Of a stretch of DNA of 64,000 nt, positions 517-14,270 are shown piece after piece. Origin of the DNA: Neophaeotheca triangularis. Taxonomy: Eukaryota. The notes under the pieces are model-generated. The model did not search any database. It had not been told where the DNA came from and was given only the letters and a program-made list of their open reading frames with translations. Location: contig BAAIJX010000026.1 of NCBI GenBank assembly GCA_054600435.1, positions 62,001 to 126,000 of the forward strand, written 5' to 3'. Positions within the stretch are counted from its first letter, which is position 1. Each line of letters starts with the position of its first letter. The translations under genes and the position numbers were made by a program.

Positions 517-1191
517 TCTTGCGGATTTCTGAGGGGGTTGCGTTTGAAGCGGGTTTTTGTTCTTCTGACGAATTCAATTCCAGGATACCTCTGCGGCGGG
601 ACTTGCTATGATTATGTATGAGTATTACGGCCATTAGTTGCATCTGGGTTACATGCTTTGATCACGAATCATTGTTGTCGCGGGTTTTGTGTATTTTGCT
701 ATGTGATCGGTTCTACGCTCGCATCGAAGGGGGTACAGTAGTAGTTCCGTCAAAAAGTGGCTATTTCAAGGCAGCCGTTTCTCTAATTGCTAGTCGATAG
801 CGATGTTGTTGTTGATTGATGAGTCTGCCGAGACTGTAGAGACGTGCACGTCTGAGGCCCTACTCTATTCTTTTGATCCTCCACCAATCAAGCCTAGTCC
901 TCCGCTAACTCACCAAACACCCGTAGCCGACGACTAGCACCCAAAGGAACGCTCCGGTAACCCATTATTTATCGACCCAAGCGAACAGCCAAAGACAACG
1001 TTAAGAATGGTTGTCCTCACTCCCCATCCATTGCTCGACAGCCAAAACTCTAACCCTTAGTAGACTCTCCGTCACCCGCACGGACTCTATCAAACGACTA
1101 AGAAAGCTACAGCTAGTAAATCCCCACTGCTTGCTTCCTCAGCACGGGCCGAAAGAACAGCAAAAAGAGAAGAAAAAAAAAAGAGCAAAAA

Positions 1192-1310
1192 AGATACAAC
1201 AGGTGGGATTCCCACGTGGTCACCCACCGTAGTACTAATCACCCGCTTCAGTGCTTGAATATGGCAGAGCGGACGGGATGCCTTAGCTTCACTGAGCTGT
1301 GGTCGTATCT
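1192..1310 (-). rRNA. 5S rRNA gene, copy A
   Basis: Reverse complement reads AGATACGACCACAG...CATCCCGTCCGCTCTGCC...TTAGTACTACGGTGGGTGACCACGTGGGAATCCC...GTTGTATCT (119 nt). Terminal helix I pairs; T-run terminator follows; TATA-like element about 25 nt upstream. Confidence 0.95.
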
Positions 1311-1379: not shown

Positions 1380-1930
1380 AGCGTAGACATGTGTTAACTA
1401 ACTTAGCTCAAGATATACCGTGACTCGGACTCGAGTACTTAGTAGTAACCTTCAGCTGGCTAGCTACCAGCTCTCGAAGCACAAATTCCGCTAACCCACA
1501 AGCTCTAGCTCGCCGTCAAATAGCCCCTATAATGTAACTCCGAGTCCCCGGACCGTGTGGAAATGCGTTGGCACCTCTTACCGACCGCTTTCGCCTATAG
1601 TCGAGAGCTTGAAGGCTCGGCTATGGATTAGTTGTCTCCAATTGACGCTACTATACGGCTGCGTTTCCACGTTCCTCGGATCGAGGGTTTACTAGGAACG
1701 TCCCAAGCGCGAGTCGGGGCTAGACTTGGTTTAGACGACGCTGACCTCGAGTCGAGGTATACTTGAATACTCTAGCTAGACATCAGTAACCGCGAGGCAA
1801 AGTCTTTCGGTCTTTCTAGTTGATCGTGGCATCTATCAACGGAGTTTGGTCGAGACTAAAAGTATATGATTTCTCTCTACCTTGCCCTACGGCTTAATCT
1901 TTTAACTGAGCGAGTCTAATCTCTCACGAA
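1380..1930. other. TpA-rich, CpA/TpG-poor non-coding spacer between the 5S genes; possible RIP-mutated repeat relic
   Basis: Dense CTAG/TAG/TCGA words and no ORF of 60 aa or more. Judged by eye; RIP indices not computed. Confidence 0.45.
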
Positions 1931-2149
1931 CACCTCTTAACGTCCGTGGCCTATGAATATCATCTAAACCACCGTGTAATCACCGACCTATCGATCGAAC
2001 TCAACACTCAAAACATTTTGTTGATAGAGAAGACCATAGTATCCGCGACGCTCACACGTCCTACCTCCGCGCAACTGGATATCTGTCTGTGTTCCCTCCT
2101 CACCTTCGCCAAAATAGTGATTATATACAAACGCCAGGGAACGCCTATC

Positions 2150-2268
2150 AGATACGACCACAGCTCAGTGAATCTAAGGCATCCCGTCCGCTCTGCCATA
2201 TTCAAGCACTGAAGCGGGTGATTAGTACTACGGTGGGTGACCACGTGGGAATCCCACCTGTTGTATCT
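2150..2268 (+). rRNA. 5S rRNA gene, copy B
   Basis: Identical to copy A except position 24 (T vs G). TTATATA at about 2121-2127; oligo-T terminator at 2268-2273. Confidence 0.95.
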
Positions 2269-3163
2269 TTTTTGATGGAGGTTTTTTTTTGGCCGTTGCT
2301 GAGCAAGCAGTGGAGCTTTTTGCGGCGTTTAGTTGGTTTTAGCTTTTTTGATAAGAGTCCGTGCGTGGCTAGGGTCAGAGTTGTTGTTGTCGACCATCTC
2401 AGTGCAACTACCACAAGGCTCTCTGTTGCTCAGATTGTTTTTTAACAGGTTGCGCTTGATCGATAGGTCGGTAATTGTAATGTCGTTTAGGTGATTTCTG
2501 TCGGTGACGGTCGTTCAAGCTATTTGCGAAGGGCTGTATGATTTTTATGATGTACCTAGCGAATGTTCATAGGTGACGGAGTACAAAATGGGAATGTGTT
2601 GGTAATCGCAGCAAATTCCATCGACAAACACCATTCAATGCTTGTCTCGCAACCATTACTGTCTGACTGAAGTATAACGTTACTTCAGCCCAGCCTGAAC
2701 CAAGCCCAGTCCGACTCGCGCTCTGGACGATCACAGCATATCTTCGATCCGAGGAACGTGTAAACGCAGCCATGAGCTAGCGCCCATCAGAGACAACCAA
2801 TAGTGACGGCGACGAGCAACAGCAACATCACCTGTACTAAAGCAACATCTGGGATTTCCGATCAATGTTTCACCGCTGGTCTAGAATTCAAGGCAAATTG
2901 CAAAGCTTTAGGGTAGTTATGTGAGTCTTGGTATCATAATCGTAGTTTCTAGCTTGAGCCGTCTAAGCTAGAAAGAACCGCGGAAGGCCACTAGCCCTCG
3001 ACACTGCTCCGATATTTCGCCCGATGTAGTAGAAGTCATGTGCCTGTTTTGCCCGCCTGCTTCGCCCGCCTTCTCTCAATCCAGTAAGACTCCACTCTTG
3101 AAACCTCCACGTATCACCCTGTCACCACCCCGCAAAGCCATCAACCCTACCTCTCAGCCCCGC

Positions 3164-8832: not shown

Positions 8833-10431
8833 TCAAATCACTCTAGCAGCCTCCCCACCGATACCCTCCTCCTCAGCCCTCCTCTTACCCCTACCTAACC
8901 CACCCTCACCCACCCCCATCCTCCTCGCCACATACTTTTGCGCTACAACACCTACGGCCAACTGCAGCGTCTCCTCCATCCACTCGGCAACCCACTCTCG
9001 CGGGTCCAGACCACCACTTTCCAGAATTTCGCGGATGGACTCGGGAAGCTCTGTGCCCTTTTCCGGCGAAGCGTCGAGCCAGTTGGCCCAGCGCTGCGGG
9101 AATGCTTGCGAAAGCGAATAGAAGGAAAGACTGTGGAGCGGGTCGTGGAGGTAGACGGCGAAGGTTATGAGCTCTTCGGCCTCTTCTTCTGGATCTTGCA
9201 CACCGCCGCTTTCCTTACTCTCTTGCCCCTCACGCGCATCCGCCGCGAAGAGGGAACCGTCCGCTGTATGCTGGATTGCCTGGATGGCGAGGAAGATGTC
9301 GCTTGAGCGCGTGGGGTTGCTCGAGTTCAGGGATTCAGTAGCCTTCTTGGCAGCCTCTTCCACGCCGCCCTGACGGTCGAAAAAGTCTTTGGCGTAGCTC
9401 TCGGCGCTCACGCGGGCTAGGCGACTGCCTTCTTTCAGGCCGGGAACCGCTCCTAAACCGCGTTCGGCGGTGCCTGAAGCTGAGTCTCGCCACCAGGGTC
9501 CGTCGCTCCATCCAGTGCCTGATGAGCCTAGCACGCCGCCGCGGTAGCCTTGCGCTTCTGAGGTCGAGCGGGCGCGGCTTTCGCTGCCGCGTTGGAGGAC
9601 GAGGAGTTCGCCGCCCTCGACTTGCGCCATGACGCGCTCGAAGGTGCTGTAGATGAGGGGGTCGAGGGATGGGTAGCCGTGAATGTCGTGGGTGGTGTGG
9701 ATTTGAAGACGTTCGTGGGCGGAGATTGGAGGGGCGATGTGCGAGATGATGTTGGTGAAGGTTGGCAAGGCTCGGGAGCGGAGATCGTCGGAGAGAGATT
9801 GGAGGTTATGGATGTTGAGGTTTGACTGTAGTTGTGAGGCCCATCGTTGCGCTTCTTCGTTGCTGCGGATGTCTTTGGCTATGTTCTCGGCTTGTTTGCG
9901 AGCCGCTGTCGCTACTGAAGCGAAGGAGCCCCACCAGCCTCCTCCACTGGACTGTGGTACTGCTGGAGGAGTCGCTTCAGCTTCAGCGGCGGACTTGCTG
10001 AACTCTGGCTTCTCCTTCTCTTCTGCGGCGGGGGTGACGCCCTCGTGATATCCTCGTGCGCTCTCCCCGCTCTTCCTGGCCTGCGAGCCGGTCCCAGCAG
10101 CTGCGGGATGTCCGGACAGTCTATCTTCGCTGTTCCTCGCACTACCTTGACCACTGGAGGCAGGGGTATGGCTCTTCGCAGCGCTGTTGGTCGAGCTCGA
10201 GAGTCTAGGTGTAGATGGCCGGGATGCGTTCGGGCGTGGTGCGAGCTGAGCTTGCAGGTCCGCGAGAGGGTCTTCTTCCTCTTGCTGAGCTGGCTTCTTC
10301 TCGCCATTCGATGTTTTTGATTTCGCCTTGGTTGTGGATTTGGCGCCCGTCTTCTGTGCTTGCGGCTGCTCGTCGACGCCGAGAGAGTCGAGCTGTGCTA
10401 AAAGGTCCTCGTCGTCCTTGCGTGGTGCCAT
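8833..10431 (-). CDS. MTC1: Maintenance of telomere capping protein 1 (Mtc1)-like
   Basis: MAPRKDDEDLLAQLDSLG start, GGGWWGS, APPISAHERLQIHTTHDIHGYPSLDPLIYSTFERVMAQVEGG, DPREWVAEWMEETL..AVGVVAQKYV. Recognised from family memory. Confidence 0.8.
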   Translation of the reverse strand: MAPRKDDEDLLAQLDSLGVDEQPQAQKTGAKSTTKAKSKTSNGEKKPAQQEEEDPLADLQAQLAPRPNASRPSTPRLSSSTNSAAKSHTPASSGQGSARNSEDRLSGHPAAAGTGSQARKSGESARGYHEGVTPAAEEKEKPEFSKSAAEAEATPPAVPQSSGGGWWGSFASVATAARKQAENIAKDIRSNEEAQRWASQLQSNLNIHNLQSLSDDLRSRALPTFTNIISHIAPPISAHERLQIHTTHDIHGYPSLDPLIYSTFERVMAQVEGGELLVLQRGSESRARSTSEAQGYRGGVLGSSGTGWSDGPWWRDSASGTAERGLGAVPGLKEGSRLARVSAESYAKDFFDRQGGVEEAAKKATESLNSSNPTRSSDIFLAIQAIQHTADGSLFAADAREGQESKESGGVQDPEEEAEELITFAVYLHDPLHSLSFYSLSQAFPQRWANWLDASPEKGTELPESIREILESGGLDPREWVAEWMEETLQLAVGVVAQKYVARRMGVGEGGLGRGKRRAEEEGIGGEAARVI

Positions 10432-11569
10432 GTTGATGGATTGAAATTGCAACTGGATATCGGGAGCTTCTCGAGGATCTCACTAATGGGCAAACTACTA
10501 GTACTCGAAAAGACAAGGAGAATGCCCGTTCAATGGCATCGCAGTCGCGCAGCTGGCTTGCTTGACGTTACACAGCTCCTTGAGGTCAAAGCTTCTTTCG
10601 GTAGGTGAAGCCGAGGTCAGTGTCACGGCCTTATCGATGCAAACGAAAAGATCTATTGTATCAATCAACTAACACTGAATTGATTCTGAAATCACCAGAA
10701 TTTTGTGGACGACATGCTGCAGGTCGAAAGCAACTTGCTCGAACCATGGTCCAACCACCCTGTAATGCAATCAGAGGCAGTGATCTTCAATTCGAAAGAG
10801 TCAACTTTCACGTTAAACAGCTTGCAATATAGATTCAAGTAGTTCAATCAACCATACCATTCTGCGAAAGCAACTCCAGGCCACTATTTAGTCTCGAAGA
10901 AACGCTGGAAAGTGGTCGCATCTGGGATTGACGGCTCTATGTTTCCTGGAGTGTAAGGAGGAGGAAACTATTCTAGACGAACTGCAGACGATGTGTGGCG
11001 ATTATACAGCGAAGCGAATGTAAGCCCGTCCTACCCGTAGAGCGTTCAATACAACATTCGTTCGATTCTCATGGCCGCTGAACAGCATGGAAGTCGTGAA
11101 AGATTGTTGTGAAATCCAGACGATCACTCAAGTGGAGAGGTCATGGCACCGTGATTGACTAGATAGAAGAGCCTGAACGATGCAACTTGGGGTGAGCCCA
11201 GGGTGAACATCGAAGACTGTACATTCGTCTTTGGCCGGGAAGCAATCACATCACTAAGCCTAGTATCCGCTCTACAGTTTCGGCCTCGCATCGAGCATGT
11301 AGACCGCGATTCTGGCGAACCTCACTCGATAGATATTACCTTCGCGAGCCTCTACAGAGCCTTTTCGCAAGCGAGGTAATTGATAGATATTCGATTGGCC
11401 CCTCTCGTTCGCTAAAGTTTCAAGGGTCTTGACTAAATGCTTTTGATGGTTCTGTCAGGCCAGAAAGCATTGGTTGCGGACAACAACAACCAATAGCCAT
11501 TTTTCCTATAGGAAGCAAAAGAATTAAAAGTGAGAGGGGTACAAAATAACAGCAAAAAAAAAGAGATGT

Positions 11570-11735
11570 TGAAGACGGTGAGACTCGAACTCACGAGGAT
11601 TGCTCCACTAGTAATCCATTTTCAGCACAGTTTGCATTGCCTGAAACTAGCGCCTAGGGGAAAGTTGTTAGCAACTTCCTAGTATGTGGCAATGAGATGT
11701 GGGGAGAAGTACCATAACCACTCGGCCACGTCTCC
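11570..11735 (-). tRNA. tRNA-Leu(CAG) with two introns: 59-nt GT-AG intron 11654-11712 (D-arm) and 26-nt canonical intron 11614-11639 (37/38)
   Basis: Spliced sequence GGAGACG TG GCC GAGTGGTTAT GGC G CTAGT TTCAGGT ACTAG TGGAGCAATCCTC GTGAG TTCGAGT CTCAC CGTCTTC A (81 nt). All stems pair; long variable arm; A73; A-box TGGCCGAGTGG; B-box GTTCGAGTC; T9 terminator at 11554-11562. Confidence 0.92.
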
Positions 11736-12563
11736 TGAGAGATAAGGTTGAGAGAATTTTGTGTTTTTGGTATATGATTGCTGAATTCTCTTGGGATAGA
11801 ACACGATACGCACGGATTCGAGAAGTGGACCATGGCAAGAAGTGGGTACAGTCAGTACCTCTTCAAAGAAATCAAAGCATCTTGGAAGCGTCCGATGAAG
11901 GATGACCCCCCAGACGGCTGGCCATGATACTACTATTGTACCTGATCGCTGGAAGGCTTCTAATGGGCTGTCTCTGTCCCACACGAATCCGAGACACGGT
12001 CAGTACCCGCTCACAGGTCACAACACATCGCATTACGTTTGCGCGGGGGAACGACTACCTACGTACGGACTACCTCCCCGGACAACCTCCCGTTCTCCCT
12101 TACATGCCTGTTCATCTTCATCTCACATCGCGGCTCGTCTGTGGTCTTTTCTCCTTTCGAAGCACCACTGCCATGCTTGTCAATTAATTGGTCCTTCGCA
12201 GCAACGAAAACTTTAGCGAGGACTAGCGAATAGAGATAAGTATGACCTGACTAGGCATATTTCCTGCCTTATCTCCAAAGTGGATTTTACCACGCCACAG
12301 GGTTGTCTGCTCTCTTTTTTTTTCGCGCAATGATCCTCGCTCATATACAGTGAGCTCTCATAGCTTTGATATTCCCAAGACACTTCTACAAATTATCCCC
12401 CAAGAGCTAGAAGGAGGTGTAGCCGGTCGCATCCTAACTCAGAGCTCCAACGTTATTAGGCGACGATCCAAGCTTGCGGCGGCGTGTCGTCTGACCTCCC
12501 AACATCAGCTGTGCAGCACAGTCTCAGATCCTAGGAGAGCTCAGGCCCCCACATCCAGCCATA

Positions 12564-14270
12564 ATGGCAATGTACCAACGAAGGTCGTCGACCGAATCAT
12601 TCGGCGGGCAATGGCGTTCACAATCTCCTACCGGTAGCGAACGGCGCAAGCTCTCTTTCAACCCAGCAGGAACATGGGACGGACCAGCGCGAGAGGAGCC
12701 TGTAGGAGCTTTTGAGGTTAGCAAGAACAAAAGAATATTGCAGGTTGGGATAGCAGTGCTATTCAATCTCTTTGCTGCCGGGACCGTTTTCGGTTACGCA
12801 GCTCTCAAACCAGTCTTGGTGGAAGAAGGGGTCTACAGGGACAGATGCACAAAGCAAGAGCTTGAGGATGGCGTTTGGGTATGCTATGAGCAGGAGCTAC
12901 GGCTGAACTTGATGTTCACGGTTGCGGCTGTTTCGACGAATGTTTGCGCCCTGCCCGTGGGCACGATACTCGATCTATTTGGACCCCGGATAGCAAGTCT
13001 TTTGGGAGTGGTCTTCATGACGATGGGAGCGCTCTTCATGGCTTTCGCAAATAGTCTGCCATTCGACGGCTACATCCCTGGCTACCTCTTCCTCGCTCTT
13101 GGCGGACCTTTCGTCTTCATTTCGTCTTTTCAGCTATCGAATACCTTTCCGCAGAATTCTGGTCTGATCCTTGCGCTCCTGACCGGCGCATTCGATACGA
13201 GTAGTGCGGTCTTCCTCCTGTACCGTCTCATTTACCAGGGAACCGACGGAGCATTCACACCTCGCAAGTTCTTCCTGGCATACCTCGTCGTGCCTGCCTT
13301 CATCCTCGTAGCTCAGATCTTCATCATGCCAGCCTCCTCGTACAAAACCGTAGGCGAACTAGTCAAGCAGGCTGAAGCCGACGACAATTCCGACACAGCA
13401 TCCGTCCATTCTAATCCCACTGGGGCACTCACCCGCCAACGCACGGCCACTTCGGAAGAAGTCACGAACCTCTTGGGCACCAAAACCGGCGACAAGCAAG
13501 CAGAGCAAGAGAAGCAAAAAGCCGAAACGTCCGGCGTCTATGGTGCCTTACACGGCAAGACAGCATCCCAGCAAATACTGTCGCCTTGGTTCGTGCTCAT
13601 CACGCTCTTCACAGTGATTCAAATGATCCGCATAAACTACTTCGTAGCGACCGTGCGAACCCAATACGACGCCATCCTCCCTCCAGGACCGCCTCCAGGA
13701 AACGCAGTGCGTCTGAACAACTTCTTCGACATCGCTTTACCGCTCGGCGGCGTTCTCAGTGTCCCCTTGATCGGGCTCGTCCTCGACCACACTTCCACAC
13801 CCTTCACGCTGGGCCTACTAGTAGTCGTCGCCACGATCATCGGCATCCTAGGAATCATCCCCGAGCTCTGGGCCGGGTACGCCAACATCGTGCTCTTCGT
13901 CCTCTACCGCCCGCTCTACTACACCGCTGTCAGCGACTACAGCGCCAAAGTCTTCGGCTTCGCGACGTTCGGCAAGGTCTACGGCTTGATCATCTGTCTA
14001 GCGGGCATCCTGAACTTCAGCCAACAAGGTCTGGATGCGCTGACGCATAGGGCTTTTGGAAATAACCCTCTTTTCGTAAACGTTGCGCTCTTGGCTGTGG
14101 CGGCCGTTATCGGCGTCGTGCTCGTGGGTTTCGTGTGGCGGAAGAGTTACACTATGCATCGGGAGAAGCTGGAGGAGGAGGCCGAGGATGCGCGGGAGAG
14201 GCTGATGCCGGGCGCGGATGAGGAGGAGGTTGAGCGCGAGCATGGACATCAGGGGTATGGGACGGCTTGA
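12564..14270 (+). CDS. MFS transporter, Fmp42/LAT3 (SLC43)-like
   Basis: Intronless 568-aa ORF with about 12 hydrophobic segments; AGTVFGYAALKPVL, GTILDLFGPR, QMIRINYFVATV, FGFATFGKVYG. Confidence 0.88.
   Translation: MAMYQRRSSTESFGGQWRSQSPTGSERRKLSFNPAGTWDGPAREEPVGAFEVSKNKRILQVGIAVLFNLFAAGTVFGYAALKPVLVEEGVYRDRCTKQELEDGVWVCYEQELRLNLMFTVAAVSTNVCALPVGTILDLFGPRIASLLGVVFMTMGALFMAFANSLPFDGYIPGYLFLALGGPFVFISSFQLSNTFPQNSGLILALLTGAFDTSSAVFLLYRLIYQGTDGAFTPRKFFLAYLVVPAFILVAQIFIMPASSYKTVGELVKQAEADDNSDTASVHSNPTGALTRQRTATSEEVTNLLGTKTGDKQAEQEKQKAETSGVYGALHGKTASQQILSPWFVLITLFTVIQMIRINYFVATVRTQYDAILPPGPPPGNAVRLNNFFDIALPLGGVLSVPLIGLVLDHTSTPFTLGLLVVVATIIGILGIIPELWAGYANIVLFVLYRPLYYTAVSDYSAKVFGFATFGKVYGLIICLAGILNFSQQGLDALTHRAFGNNPLFVNVALLAVAAVIGVVLVGFVWRKSYTMHREKLEEEAEDARERLMPGADEEEVEREHGHQGYGTA

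What the first reader, a model, noticed from the sequence alone, without database searches (positions are those of the whole stretch)
11654..11712. Spliceosomal-type (GT-AG) intron inside the D-arm of a tRNA-Leu(CAG) gene
Seen: on the minus strand the tRNA reads GGAGACGTGGCCGAGTGGTTATG | gtacttctcc...aagttGCTAACaactttcccctag | GCGCTAGTTTCAG. The 59-nt insert has a GT donor, a CTAAC branch point about 13 nt from the end, a pyrimidine run and a TAG acceptor. Its length and layout match the mRNA introns in this window (mostly 51-87 nt). Removing exactly GT..AG restores the D-stem (GCC/GGC) and an 81-nt class II cloverleaf. The A-box lies intact upstream of the insert, the B-box and T9 terminator are intact, and the insert has no T-run that would stop Pol III. 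Established: nuclear tRNA introns are normally cut by the SEN/TSEN endonuclease; spliceosomal introns are known in some fungal snRNA and rRNA genes. I know of no description of one in a tRNA gene. Inference: a Pol III tRNA transcript is a spliceosome substrate, possibly after intron gain by reverse splicing or an introner.
Basis: partly seen in the sequence, partly recalled or inferred. Interest (0 to 1): 0.95.

Follow-up and report, generated by a model that had tools for sequence, protein, structure and literature searches.

The report
Spliceosome-type intron inside a fungal tRNA gene
A leucine tRNA gene of a fungus-like genome carries, besides its ordinary tRNA intron, a second intron with the hallmarks of messenger-RNA introns; related genes from other organisms share this, which suggests a tRNA precursor is cut by the spliceosome, something not described before.

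Summary
On the minus strand, 11570-11735 is a tRNA-Leu(CAG) gene broken at 11654-11712 by a 59-nt insert in the 3' strand of the D-stem. The insert starts GT, has GCTAAC with the branch A 14 nt from its end, and ends TAG. The 81-nt cloverleaf appears only after both are removed.

A metagenome scan anchored only on the two exons returned three more tRNA-Leu(CAG) genes. All 3 of 3 carry GT...CTAAY-like...AG inserts of 50-55 nt. Two sit at the same site, one of them in a syntenic locus, and one sits 5 nt upstream. One gene has a further GT-AG insert in the T-loop. The insert interiors are unrelated. The tRNA stems stay paired in 80 of 80 cells, and 6 pairs changed on both sides. Chance, an insertion-killed pseudogene and an assembly artefact are therefore very unlikely.

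Best reading: real spliceosomal-type introns in functional tRNA genes, probably in Pol III transcripts, as in fission-yeast U6. No RNA evidence of splicing was obtained. Ten literature searches found no description of this. Interest is high.

The parts
11570..11735 (-). Whole tRNA-Leu(CAG) gene: 166 nt made of 3 exons (23 + 14 + 44 nt) and two intervening sequences
   Evidence: Rfam tRNA 33.7 bits. ARAGORN calls tRNA-Leu(cag), 81 nt, after in-script removal of the 59-nt insert.
11713..11735 (-). Exon 1: acceptor 5' strand, D-stem 5' strand, D-loop, first base of the D-stem 3' strand. Contains the A box at 11728-11718.
11654..11712 (-). 59-nt spliceosomal-type insert. Donor GTACTT at 11712-11707, branch GCTAAC at 11672-11667, acceptor TAG at 11656-11654. 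The boundary can slide by +-1.
   Evidence: Identical in a second strain (X2) and in a 161-nt contig of run X3. Its 3' 39 nt are present in organism C.
11640..11653 (-). Exon 2: rest of the D-stem 3' strand, base 26, anticodon-stem 5' strand, and the loop with anticodon CAG and G37
11614..11639 (-). [quoted passage not shown]
   Evidence: ARAGORN intron call. Relatives carry 17-32 nt introns at the same place.
11570..11613 (-). Exon 3: base 38, anticodon-stem 3' strand, long variable arm, T-arm (B box at 11592-11582), acceptor 3' strand, discriminator A
11554..11562 (-). T9 run 8 nt past the discriminator, a Pol III terminator-like site. Its length varies in strain X2.
   Evidence: Insertions of one or two A (plus strand) behind 11553 in X2.
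11770..11776 (-). TATA-like CATATAC about 35-41 nt upstream of the gene (weak, seen by eye)
   Evidence: No test of significance was made.

Best explanation
The 59-nt insert is a genuine U2-type (GT-AG, CTAAC-branch) spliceosomal-style intron in the D-arm of a functional nuclear tRNA-Leu(CAG) gene. The same gene also carries an ordinary 37/38 tRNA intron.

Proposed pathway:
1. The gene is transcribed, most likely by Pol III from its intact A and B boxes, and stops at the T9 run. This is inferred.
2. The spliceosome recognises the donor, branch and acceptor and removes the D-arm intron as a lariat. This is inferred from the conserved signals.
3. The tRNA splicing endonuclease and ligase remove the 37/38 intron. 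This follows from established knowledge of introns at that position.
4. The ends are matured as usual.

This is not a one-off. Homologous tRNA-Leu(CAG) genes in at least three other organisms carry such introns at three different sites (23/24, 18/19 and 57/58 by my numbering). The gene has therefore been invaded repeatedly and has kept the introns under selection.
For: (1) Anatomy of the window gene.

(2) Relatives. A metagenome scan required only the exon anchors and a 45-75 nt gap. It returned 3 loci, and 3 of 3 have inserts that can be delimited GT..AG with a branch-like motif whose A lies 10-12 nt from the end. The 5' ends are GTGATT, GTGAGT and GTGCGT. L003 has a second insert, in the T-loop, starting GTCAGT.

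(3) Chance. Shuffle probabilities per insert are 0.003-0.012 for GT..AG and 0.0004-0.0017 with a branch motif. The products over the 5 inserts are 2e-11 and 1.5e-15.

(4) Insert interiors show no similarity above shuffles, with z from 0.1 to 1.4 in 10 of 10 pairs. No shared fold exists: z is -1.0 to +1.1 for the four non-window inserts. This is the pattern of spliceosomal introns, not of structure-recognised ones.

(5) After in-script removal of the inserts, 4 of 4 genes give tRNA-Leu with a canonical intron.

(6) Across 20 stem pairs in 4 genes, 0 of 80 cells are non-standard. Six pairs (acceptor 3, 5, 6, 7; T-stem 2, 4) changed on both sides. The genes have therefore evolved as working tRNAs.

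(7) L003 is the syntenic orthologue. Its divergently oriented MFS-like neighbour is 70% identical in DNA and about 79% in protein. The intron at this site has thus survived long divergence.

(8) Closer relatives. The insert is unchanged in a second strain (X2). A contig from organism C covers 11566-11692 with 2 differences in 127 nt, against 28 in 185 nt in a flank contig (Fisher p = 2e-5).

(9) The inserts are 50-59 nt with the branch A 10-14 nt from the end. Heuristic mRNA-intron candidates in the window span 46-93 nt (median 62) with the branch A 8-25 nt from the end.

(10) Precedent. The Pol III-made U6 snRNA of S. pombe has an intron removed by the spliceosome, and fungal U6 genes carry up to four such introns (passages of PMC5855946).
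Against: No RNA evidence exists. No contig in the 4 runs laid joins across 11654-11712. The one contig from a run guessed to be RNA (X3, 11569-11729) carries both intervening sequences unspliced.

The window's donor GTACTT and L001's GTGATT lack G at +5, so 2 of 5 donors are weak.

Pol III transcripts lack a cap and Pol II-coupled spliceosome recruitment.

The A box start to B box start distance is 136 nt, longer than in ordinary tRNA genes.

In L003 the T-loop insert splits the B box, which is awkward for Pol III.

The sample is four genes, chosen by a pattern that demanded an insert. How many uninterrupted tRNA-Leu(CAG) genes these genomes hold is unknown, because no whole genome is held.

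The window, L001 and L003 D-arm inserts may share one origin, so the five inserts are not five independent trials.
Confidence: 0.65

Rival explanations
1. Pseudogene. A short intron-like or mobile sequence landed in one copy of tRNA-Leu(CAG) and killed it, and intact copies elsewhere do the work.
For: The native sequence is not recognised as tRNA-Leu by ARAGORN or by Rfam at gathering settings over the whole window. The donor is weak, GTACTT. The number of intact copies is unknown. A contig in run X6 shows a 2-nt deletion in the acceptor 3' strand at 11575 at depth 3.9.
Against: 0 of 80 stem cells are broken and 6 pairs changed on both sides across four genes. The syntenic orthologue keeps an intron at the same site although the neighbouring coding DNA is only 70% identical. 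Splice signals are kept in 5 of 5 inserts while the interiors are scrambled. The gene is much better conserved than its flanks in organism C.
Confidence: 0.07
2. A real intron, but removed by the tRNA splicing endonuclease or another protein nuclease, like the ectopic BHB introns of Archaea and Cyanidioschyzon merolae. On this reading the GT-AG ends are incidental.
For: [quoted passage not shown] L003's three-intron layout looks alike. A permissive scan finds some 4-bp central helices in 4 of 5 inserts.
Against: In strict BHB geometry, 0 of 5 inserts have a 4/4 central helix in any register. The window insert has none even in the permissive scan, and that scan hits 48-63% of shuffles, so its hits carry no weight. 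The inserts share no fold. GT, a branch motif and AG in 5 of 5 inserts have no role in endonuclease splicing. Lengths of 50-59 nt match the local mRNA-intron candidates.
Confidence: 0.08
3. Spliceosomal intron, but the host RNA is a Pol II transcript. The tRNA would be embedded in a longer non-coding or upstream transcript, spliced co-transcriptionally, then released by RNase P and RNase Z.
For: This removes the difficulty of recruiting the spliceosome to Pol III RNA. It would also tolerate the split B box of L003 and the long A-B spacing. A gene on the same strand starts about 1.1 kb downstream.
Against: A T-run lies just after the gene in the window (T9), L001 (T4) and L002 (T7), and 23 nt downstream in L003 (T7). 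The A box is intact in 4 of 4 genes and the B box in 3 of 4. None of the 5 inserts has a T run of 4 or more, but this is weak, because only 4 of 25 local mRNA-intron candidates have one.
Confidence: 0.12
4. The insert is never removed. The RNA is a tRNA-like molecule with an extra arm, or has some other role.
For: The only contig that spans it (X3) keeps it. The 3' half of the window insert forms a stable hairpin, -9.3 kcal/mol with z = -3.35.
Against: The hairpin is not shared by the four other inserts. The interiors are unrelated. An insert inside the D-stem strand would abolish the D-arm. This reading does not explain the conservation of GT, the branch motif and AG.
Confidence: 0.04

Closest known systems
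mRNA-type (spliceosomal) introns in fungal U6 snRNA genes (S. pombe; Tani and Ohshima 1989/1991; Canzler et al. 2016, as reviewed in PMC5855946)
   Same: A small, structured, Pol III-made non-coding RNA gene is interrupted by short introns with canonical donor, branch and acceptor. The introns are otherwise unconserved, lie at several sites, and can number several per gene. Reverse splicing is the proposed origin (passages read).
   Different: The host here is a tRNA, which has no place in the spliceosome's active site, so the proximity argument for reverse splicing does not apply. The gene also carries a second intron of the endonuclease type. Splicing is shown for S. pombe U6 but not here.
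Spliceosomal introns in other fungal non-coding RNA genes: U3 snoRNA (PMC5832005), U1/U2/U5 snRNAs and rDNA of ascomycetes (cited in PMC5855946)
   Same: Normal splice signals sit inside structural RNA genes, including a Pol I product. Branch-to-acceptor distances average about 15 nt (passages read).
   Different: None of these hosts is a tRNA. The passages I read mention tRNAs only in other contexts.
Canonical nuclear tRNA intron at 37/38 (SEN/TSEN endonuclease plus ligase)
   Same: It interrupts a nuclear tRNA gene and must be removed to give a working tRNA. The same gene has one, at 11614-11639.
   Different: The 59-nt insert lies at 23/24 in the D-stem. It has GT/branch/AG signals, shows no BHB, and is 2-3 times longer than the canonical introns of these four genes (17-32 nt).
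Ectopic and multiple BHB introns of Cyanidioschyzon merolae nuclear tRNA genes (PMC3728597) and of Archaea
   Same: Nuclear tRNA genes carry introns in the D-arm and T-arm as well as at 37/38. tRNA-Ile(UAU) there has three, as L003 has here.
   Different: Those introns are defined by bulge-helix-bulge structure and cut by the tRNA endonuclease. The inserts here have no BHB in strict geometry and carry spliceosomal sequence signals instead.
Introner-like elements of fungi
   Same: Short intron-sized elements that bring their own splice signals and can create new introns.
   Different: They occur as many near-identical copies. No second copy of the insert is in the 64-kb window, and the five inserts are unrelated to each other. 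This could not be tested genome-wide.

Membership tests
U2-type GT-AG spliceosomal intron (short fungal type) | GT at the 5' end and AG at the 3' end | tested here: met
   5 of 5 inserts (window, L001, L002, L003 D-arm, L003 T-loop) have a register that gives GT..AG. Shuffles give 0.3-1.2% each.
U2-type GT-AG spliceosomal intron (short fungal type) | Branch-site motif (CTRAY-like) a short distance upstream of the acceptor | tested here: met
   GCTAAC (14 nt), GCTAAC (11), TCTAAC (12), ATTAAT (10), GCTAAT (10). The L003 D-arm motif is the weakest.
U2-type GT-AG spliceosomal intron (short fungal type) | Extended donor consensus GTRNGT (consensus recalled) | tested here: inconclusive
   Two of 5 donors fit GTRNGT in full (GTGAGT, GTGCGT). 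A third (GTCAGT) keeps G at +5 and T at +6 but has C at +3. The window (GTACTT) and L001 (GTGATT) have T at +5.
U2-type GT-AG spliceosomal intron (short fungal type) | Length within the range of the host's mRNA introns | tested here: met
   50-59 nt against 46-93 nt (median 62) for 25 heuristic ORF-joining candidates in the window. That set was pre-filtered on donor, branch and acceptor motifs.
U2-type GT-AG spliceosomal intron (short fungal type) | Signals conserved among homologues while the interior drifts; no conserved fold | tested here: met
   Interior alignments z 0.1-1.4 in 10 of 10 pairs. Fold z -1.0 to +1.1 for four inserts; only the window insert is structured.
U2-type GT-AG spliceosomal intron (short fungal type) | Removed from RNA as a lariat by the spliceosome | not testable with these tools
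   No RNA run on record and no joint across the insert in the contigs laid.
Canonical nuclear tRNA intron (SEN/TSEN substrate) | Located between positions 37 and 38 | tested here: not met
   The 59-nt insert lies between bases 23 and 24 (+-1). The separate 26-nt intron of the same gene does lie at 37/38.
BHB-type ectopic tRNA intron (Archaea, C. merolae) | Two 3-nt bulges holding the cut sites, separated by a 4-bp helix (definition from PMC3728597; cut position within the bulge recalled) | tested here: not met
   Strict geometry: best central helix 2 of 4 pairs for the window insert and 3 of 4 for any insert. The permissive scan finds none for the window, and hits elsewhere are at the shuffle rate.
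Pol III type-2 (tRNA) gene | Internal A box and B box and a downstream T-run terminator | tested here: met
   A box at 11728-11718, B box at 11592-11582, T9 at 11562-11554. The spacing is long at 136 nt. The B box is split in L003. Transcription itself was not tested.
tRNA pseudogene | Unpaired stems or free decay of the exons | tested here: not met
   0 of 80 stem cells non-standard and 6 pairs with compensatory change. The discriminator A and G37 are kept in 4 of 4 genes.
Introner-like or other mobile element | Multiple similar copies in the genome | tested here: inconclusive
   No second copy in the 64-kb window (best other match 11 nt). No whole genome is held.

The most novel reading that the evidence does not exclude
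In a lineage of ascomycete-like fungi, a nuclear pre-tRNA made by Pol III is a routine substrate of the spliceosome. Its gene has been colonised repeatedly by spliceosomal introns: at three separate sites, with up to two per gene in addition to the endonuclease-type intron, and one of them splits the B-box promoter. One small RNA would then pass through both eukaryotic nuclear splicing systems. It would offer a natural test bed for intron gain by reverse splicing into abundant structured RNAs and for spliceosome recruitment without Pol II.
Probability: 0.5. Interest if true: 0.92.

Novelty: new variant of a known kind. Interest (0 to 1): 0.86.

Why it matters
Current accounts treat spliceosomal introns and tRNA introns as separate, unrelated systems. 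[quoted passage not shown]

A tRNA gene that needs the spliceosome would break that separation and extend the U6 precedent to the largest class of Pol III genes. It would also bear on how new introns arise, because three insertion sites in one 81-nt RNA argue for reverse splicing into an abundant RNA.

There is a practical point too. Standard tRNA finders miss or mis-call these genes. ARAGORN calls them His or Phe or finds nothing, and Rfam at gathering settings missed the window gene. Fungal tRNA gene sets may therefore be systematically incomplete.

Tried and rejected
Whole genome: none is held. I could not count intact versus interrupted tRNA-Leu(CAG) genes or look for copies of the insert elsewhere.

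Sequencing runs: no RNA holder is listed. Of the 8 runs listed I laid 4 (X2, X3, X5, X6). No joint across 11654-11712 appeared in any laid run. These are contigs, which cannot show absence. X3 and X6 are only guessed to be RNA. X3 has no cover in the laid 1.3 kb outside 11569-11729. That is tempting to read as a transcript, but it is not admissible as evidence.

T runs: the lack of T4+ runs in the inserts, as a sign of Pol III transcription, is not significant. Only 4 of 25 local mRNA-intron candidates have such a run.

Second strain: 0 of 59 differences in the insert against 7 of 212 in the upstream flank in X2 is not significant (p = 0.35).

BHB: the strict test was negative. The permissive scan is uninformative, since 48-63% of shuffles hit.

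Insert copies: none in the window.

Other collections: the prokaryote genome scan with the same pattern gave 0 hits, as expected.

Earlier scan notes: nothing relevant.

"Fungus-like" rests on short CTRAC-branch introns, dispersed 5S genes and fungal-type neighbours (inference).

Assembly artefact: rejected, because the insert is present in independent runs and in three metagenome contigs.

First intron heuristic: one search was too loose (286 candidates) and was replaced.

Literature: ten searches of the held library found no description of a spliceosomal intron in a tRNA gene. The only phrase hit concerned "non-spliceosomal tRNA introns". Subscription journals are not covered.

Full report
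**1. The observation**

Read on the minus strand, 11735-11570 is a tRNA gene. Rfam's tRNA model matches it end to end at 33.7 bits (gathering score 29), with gaps of 61 and 30 nt in the D-loop and anticodon loop. When 11654-11712 is deleted by coordinates in a script, ARAGORN reports tRNA-Leu(cag), 81 nt, with a 26-nt intron at 37/38. The untouched sequence yields only a spurious tRNA-His with a 73-nt intron. ARAGORN without intron search finds nothing, and Rfam at gathering settings over the whole window misses the gene.

The gene therefore has three exons and two intervening sequences:

| Part | Window coordinates | Length |
|---|---|---|
| Exon 1 | 11735-11713 | 23 nt |
| 59-nt insert | 11712-11654 | 59 nt |
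| Exon 2 | 11653-11640 | 14 nt |
| Canonical intron | 11639-11614 | 26 nt |
| Exon 3 | 11613-11570 | 44 nt |

The insert begins GTACTT, has GCTAAC at 11672-11667 with the branch A 14 nt from its end, and ends TAG. Because a G flanks each end, the cut can slide one base either way. GT..AG is one of three equivalent registers.

By my numbering the insert sits between bases 23 and 24, in the 3' strand of the D-stem. The A box, the B box and a T9 run 8 nt past the discriminator are intact.

The gene lies in a 2-kb spacer between two divergent genes. One is a DUF5427-family gene (8836-10431, minus). The other is a weak MFS-like transporter gene (12564-14267, plus).

**2. More than chance?**

For the window alone, 200,000 shuffles of the insert in its exon context give GT..AG in 0.28% of cases. 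With a branch motif 8-20 nt from the end the figure is 0.037%.

**3. Relatives**

No whole genome is held, so I used the one metagenome scan. The pattern required only 11 bases of exon 1 and the 14 bases of exon 2, separated by 45-75 unspecified bases. It returned 3 loci, and all 3 are tRNA-Leu(CAG) genes with an insert bearing spliceosomal-type signals.

| Locus | Gene | Insert | Site (my numbering) | 5' end | Branch motif (A to end) | 3' end |
|---|---|---|---|---|---|---|
| Window | 11570-11735 (-) | 59 nt, 11654-11712 | 23/24 | GTACTT | GCTAAC (14 nt) | TAG |
| L001 | 1925-2091 (-) | 54 nt, 2015-2068 | 23/24 | GTGATT | GCTAAC (11 nt) | CAG |
| L002 | 1521-1671 (+) | 55 nt, 1538-1592 | 18/19, 5 nt upstream | GTGAGT | TCTAAC (12 nt) | AAG |
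| L003, D-arm | 1994-2200 (+) | 50 nt, 2017-2066 | 23/24 | GTGCGT | ATTAAT (10 nt) | CAG |
| L003, T-loop | same gene | 51 nt, 2134-2184 | 57/58 | GTCAGT | GCTAAT (10 nt) | CAG |

The L003 T-loop insert splits the B box. All four genes also carry a canonical 37/38 intron of 17-32 nt. After in-script removal of the GT-AG inserts, ARAGORN calls tRNA-Leu in 4 of 4 genes. For L002 it places the canonical intron one base off and prints caa.

The product of the per-insert shuffle probabilities is 2e-11 for GT..AG and 1.5e-15 with the branch motif. The three same-site inserts may share one origin, so these are not five independent events. In that case the argument becomes conservation, because the interiors are no more alike than shuffles (z 0.1-1.4 in 10 of 10 pairs). 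There is also no shared fold (z -1.0 to +1.1 for the four non-window inserts).

**4. Are these working genes?**

Across 20 stem pairs in the four genes, 0 of 80 cells are non-standard. Six pairs (acceptor 3, 5, 6, 7; T-stem 2, 4) differ on both sides.

The D-stem and the 5' strand of the anticodon stem were largely fixed by my search pattern, so their constancy says nothing. The acceptor and T stems were not constrained by the pattern.

L003 is the syntenic orthologue. Its neighbour on the opposite strand is the same MFS-like gene, 70% identical in DNA and about 79% in protein. L001 lies beside a phosphoribosyltransferase gene and is not syntenic.

**5. Closer relatives from sequencing runs**

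- X2 (second strain): covers the whole region. In its 382-nt contig over the gene, 1 of 8 substitutions falls in the gene, at 11621 in the canonical intron. None falls in the insert, and 7 fall at 11770-11793. This contrast is not significant.
- X5 (organism C): one contig covers 11566-11692, that is exon 3, the canonical intron, exon 2 and the last 39 nt of the insert, with 2 differences in 127 nt. Its 3' flank does not align but shows a similar T-run followed by GCTGTT. Another X5 contig, at 12116-12300, has 28 differences in 185 nt. The contrast is significant (p = 2e-5; worst case for the non-exon part p = 0.008). The table did not show where the two differences lie.
- X3 (guessed RNA): a single 161-nt contig equals 11569-11729 exactly and so bridges both intervening sequences unspliced.
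- X6: its contig reaches 14 nt into the insert and has a 2-nt deletion at 11575.
- No contig in any laid run joins across the insert.

**6. Mechanism**

The signals kept in all five inserts are those read by U1, U2 and the spliceosome's second step. Lengths and branch distances match the heuristic ORF-joining mRNA-intron candidates in this window (25 candidates, 46-93 nt, median 62).

The endonuclease route is poorly supported. In strict bulge-helix-bulge geometry, none of the 5 inserts has a full 4-bp central helix. The window insert has none even in a permissive scan, and that scan's hits elsewhere occur in about half of shuffles.

Pol III is the likelier polymerase, given the intact A box (4 of 4 genes), the intact B box (3 of 4) and the T-runs after every gene. 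Against this stand the 136-nt spacing between box starts and the split B box of L003. A Pol II host transcript cannot be excluded.

A precedent exists. The Pol III-made U6 snRNA of S. pombe is spliced by the spliceosome, and fungal U6 genes hold up to four unrelated introns (passages of PMC5855946). U3 snoRNA genes of fungi do likewise (passages of PMC5832005).

What is shown: the anatomy, the conservation of signals, the compensatory evolution of the stems, and synteny. What is inferred: transcription, removal of the insert, and the machinery that removes it.

**7. Weak points**

- Two of 5 donors lack G at +5, including the window's.
- Only four genes were sampled, and the pattern selected for genes with an insert.
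- There is no RNA evidence.
- The number of intact tRNA-Leu(CAG) genes in these genomes is unknown.
- The taxon was not determined.

**8. Comparison and novelty**

The closest known cases are spliceosomal introns in U6, U3 and rRNA genes, which have the same kind of intron in a different host. Next are the ectopic multi-intron tRNA genes of C. merolae, which have the same host and layout but a BHB and endonuclease mechanism (PMC3728597, abstract and passages).

Ten searches of the held library found no report of a spliceosomal intron in a tRNA gene. The tRNA review PMC10275265 mentions the spliceosome only as a contrast (one passage seen). A 2025 preprint calls the three nuclear intron types completely unrelated (passages).

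I rate this a new variant of a known kind: a spliceosomal intron in a new class of host gene. Interest is high, and the claim is directly testable at the bench.

Noticed in passing
L003:2134-2184 (+): A second GT-AG insert (GTCAGT ... GCTAAT ... CAG, 51 nt) sits in the T-loop of the syntenic orthologue. It splits the B-box promoter element, and the gene then has three intervening sequences.
   Followed up: partly
L002:1538-1592 (+): An insert with the best donor of all (GTGAGT) lies 5 nt upstream of the window's site, between the conserved G18 and G19. Its first G rebuilds the last base of the A box. This points to an independent gain.
   Followed up: partly
window 11654-11683 (-): The 3' half of the window insert folds into a stable hairpin (-9.3 kcal/mol, z = -3.35, 0 of 200 shuffles as good). 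The branch CTAA sits in the loop and the acceptor is paired at the base of the stem. The other four inserts do not share it.
   Followed up: partly
window 11540-11569 (-); L001 and L002 3' flanks; loose end of the X5 contig: The 3' flank shows a T-run followed by GCTGTT and more T in the window, L001, L002 and organism C. L003 has a variant (T7 then GCTTTTT). This may be a conserved double terminator or a shared flank.
   Followed up: no
window 1191-1310 (-) and 2150-2269 (+): Two full-length 5S rRNA genes (84.4 and 85.9 bits) lie about 840 bp apart in divergent orientation.
   Followed up: no
window 11575 (run X6): One low-depth contig (3.9) has a 2-nt deletion in the acceptor 3' strand. It could be an error, a damaged copy or an allele.
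   Followed up: no
window 11435-11476 and 11333-11594 (run X2): The second strain shows two contig forms downstream of the gene. One skips 40 nt (11435-11476) and the other has 23 substitutions. This looks like two haplotypes or copies.
   Followed up: no
acceptor pair 2:71 of all four genes: A G:T (G-U) wobble at the second acceptor pair is kept in 4 of 4 genes while neighbouring pairs co-vary. It may be an identity or processing element.
   Followed up: no
window 11570-11735; L001-L003: Annotation pitfall: ARAGORN calls the native genes tRNA-His or tRNA-Phe with long introns, or finds nothing. Such genes would be missed or mislabelled in routine tRNA annotation.
   Followed up: yes
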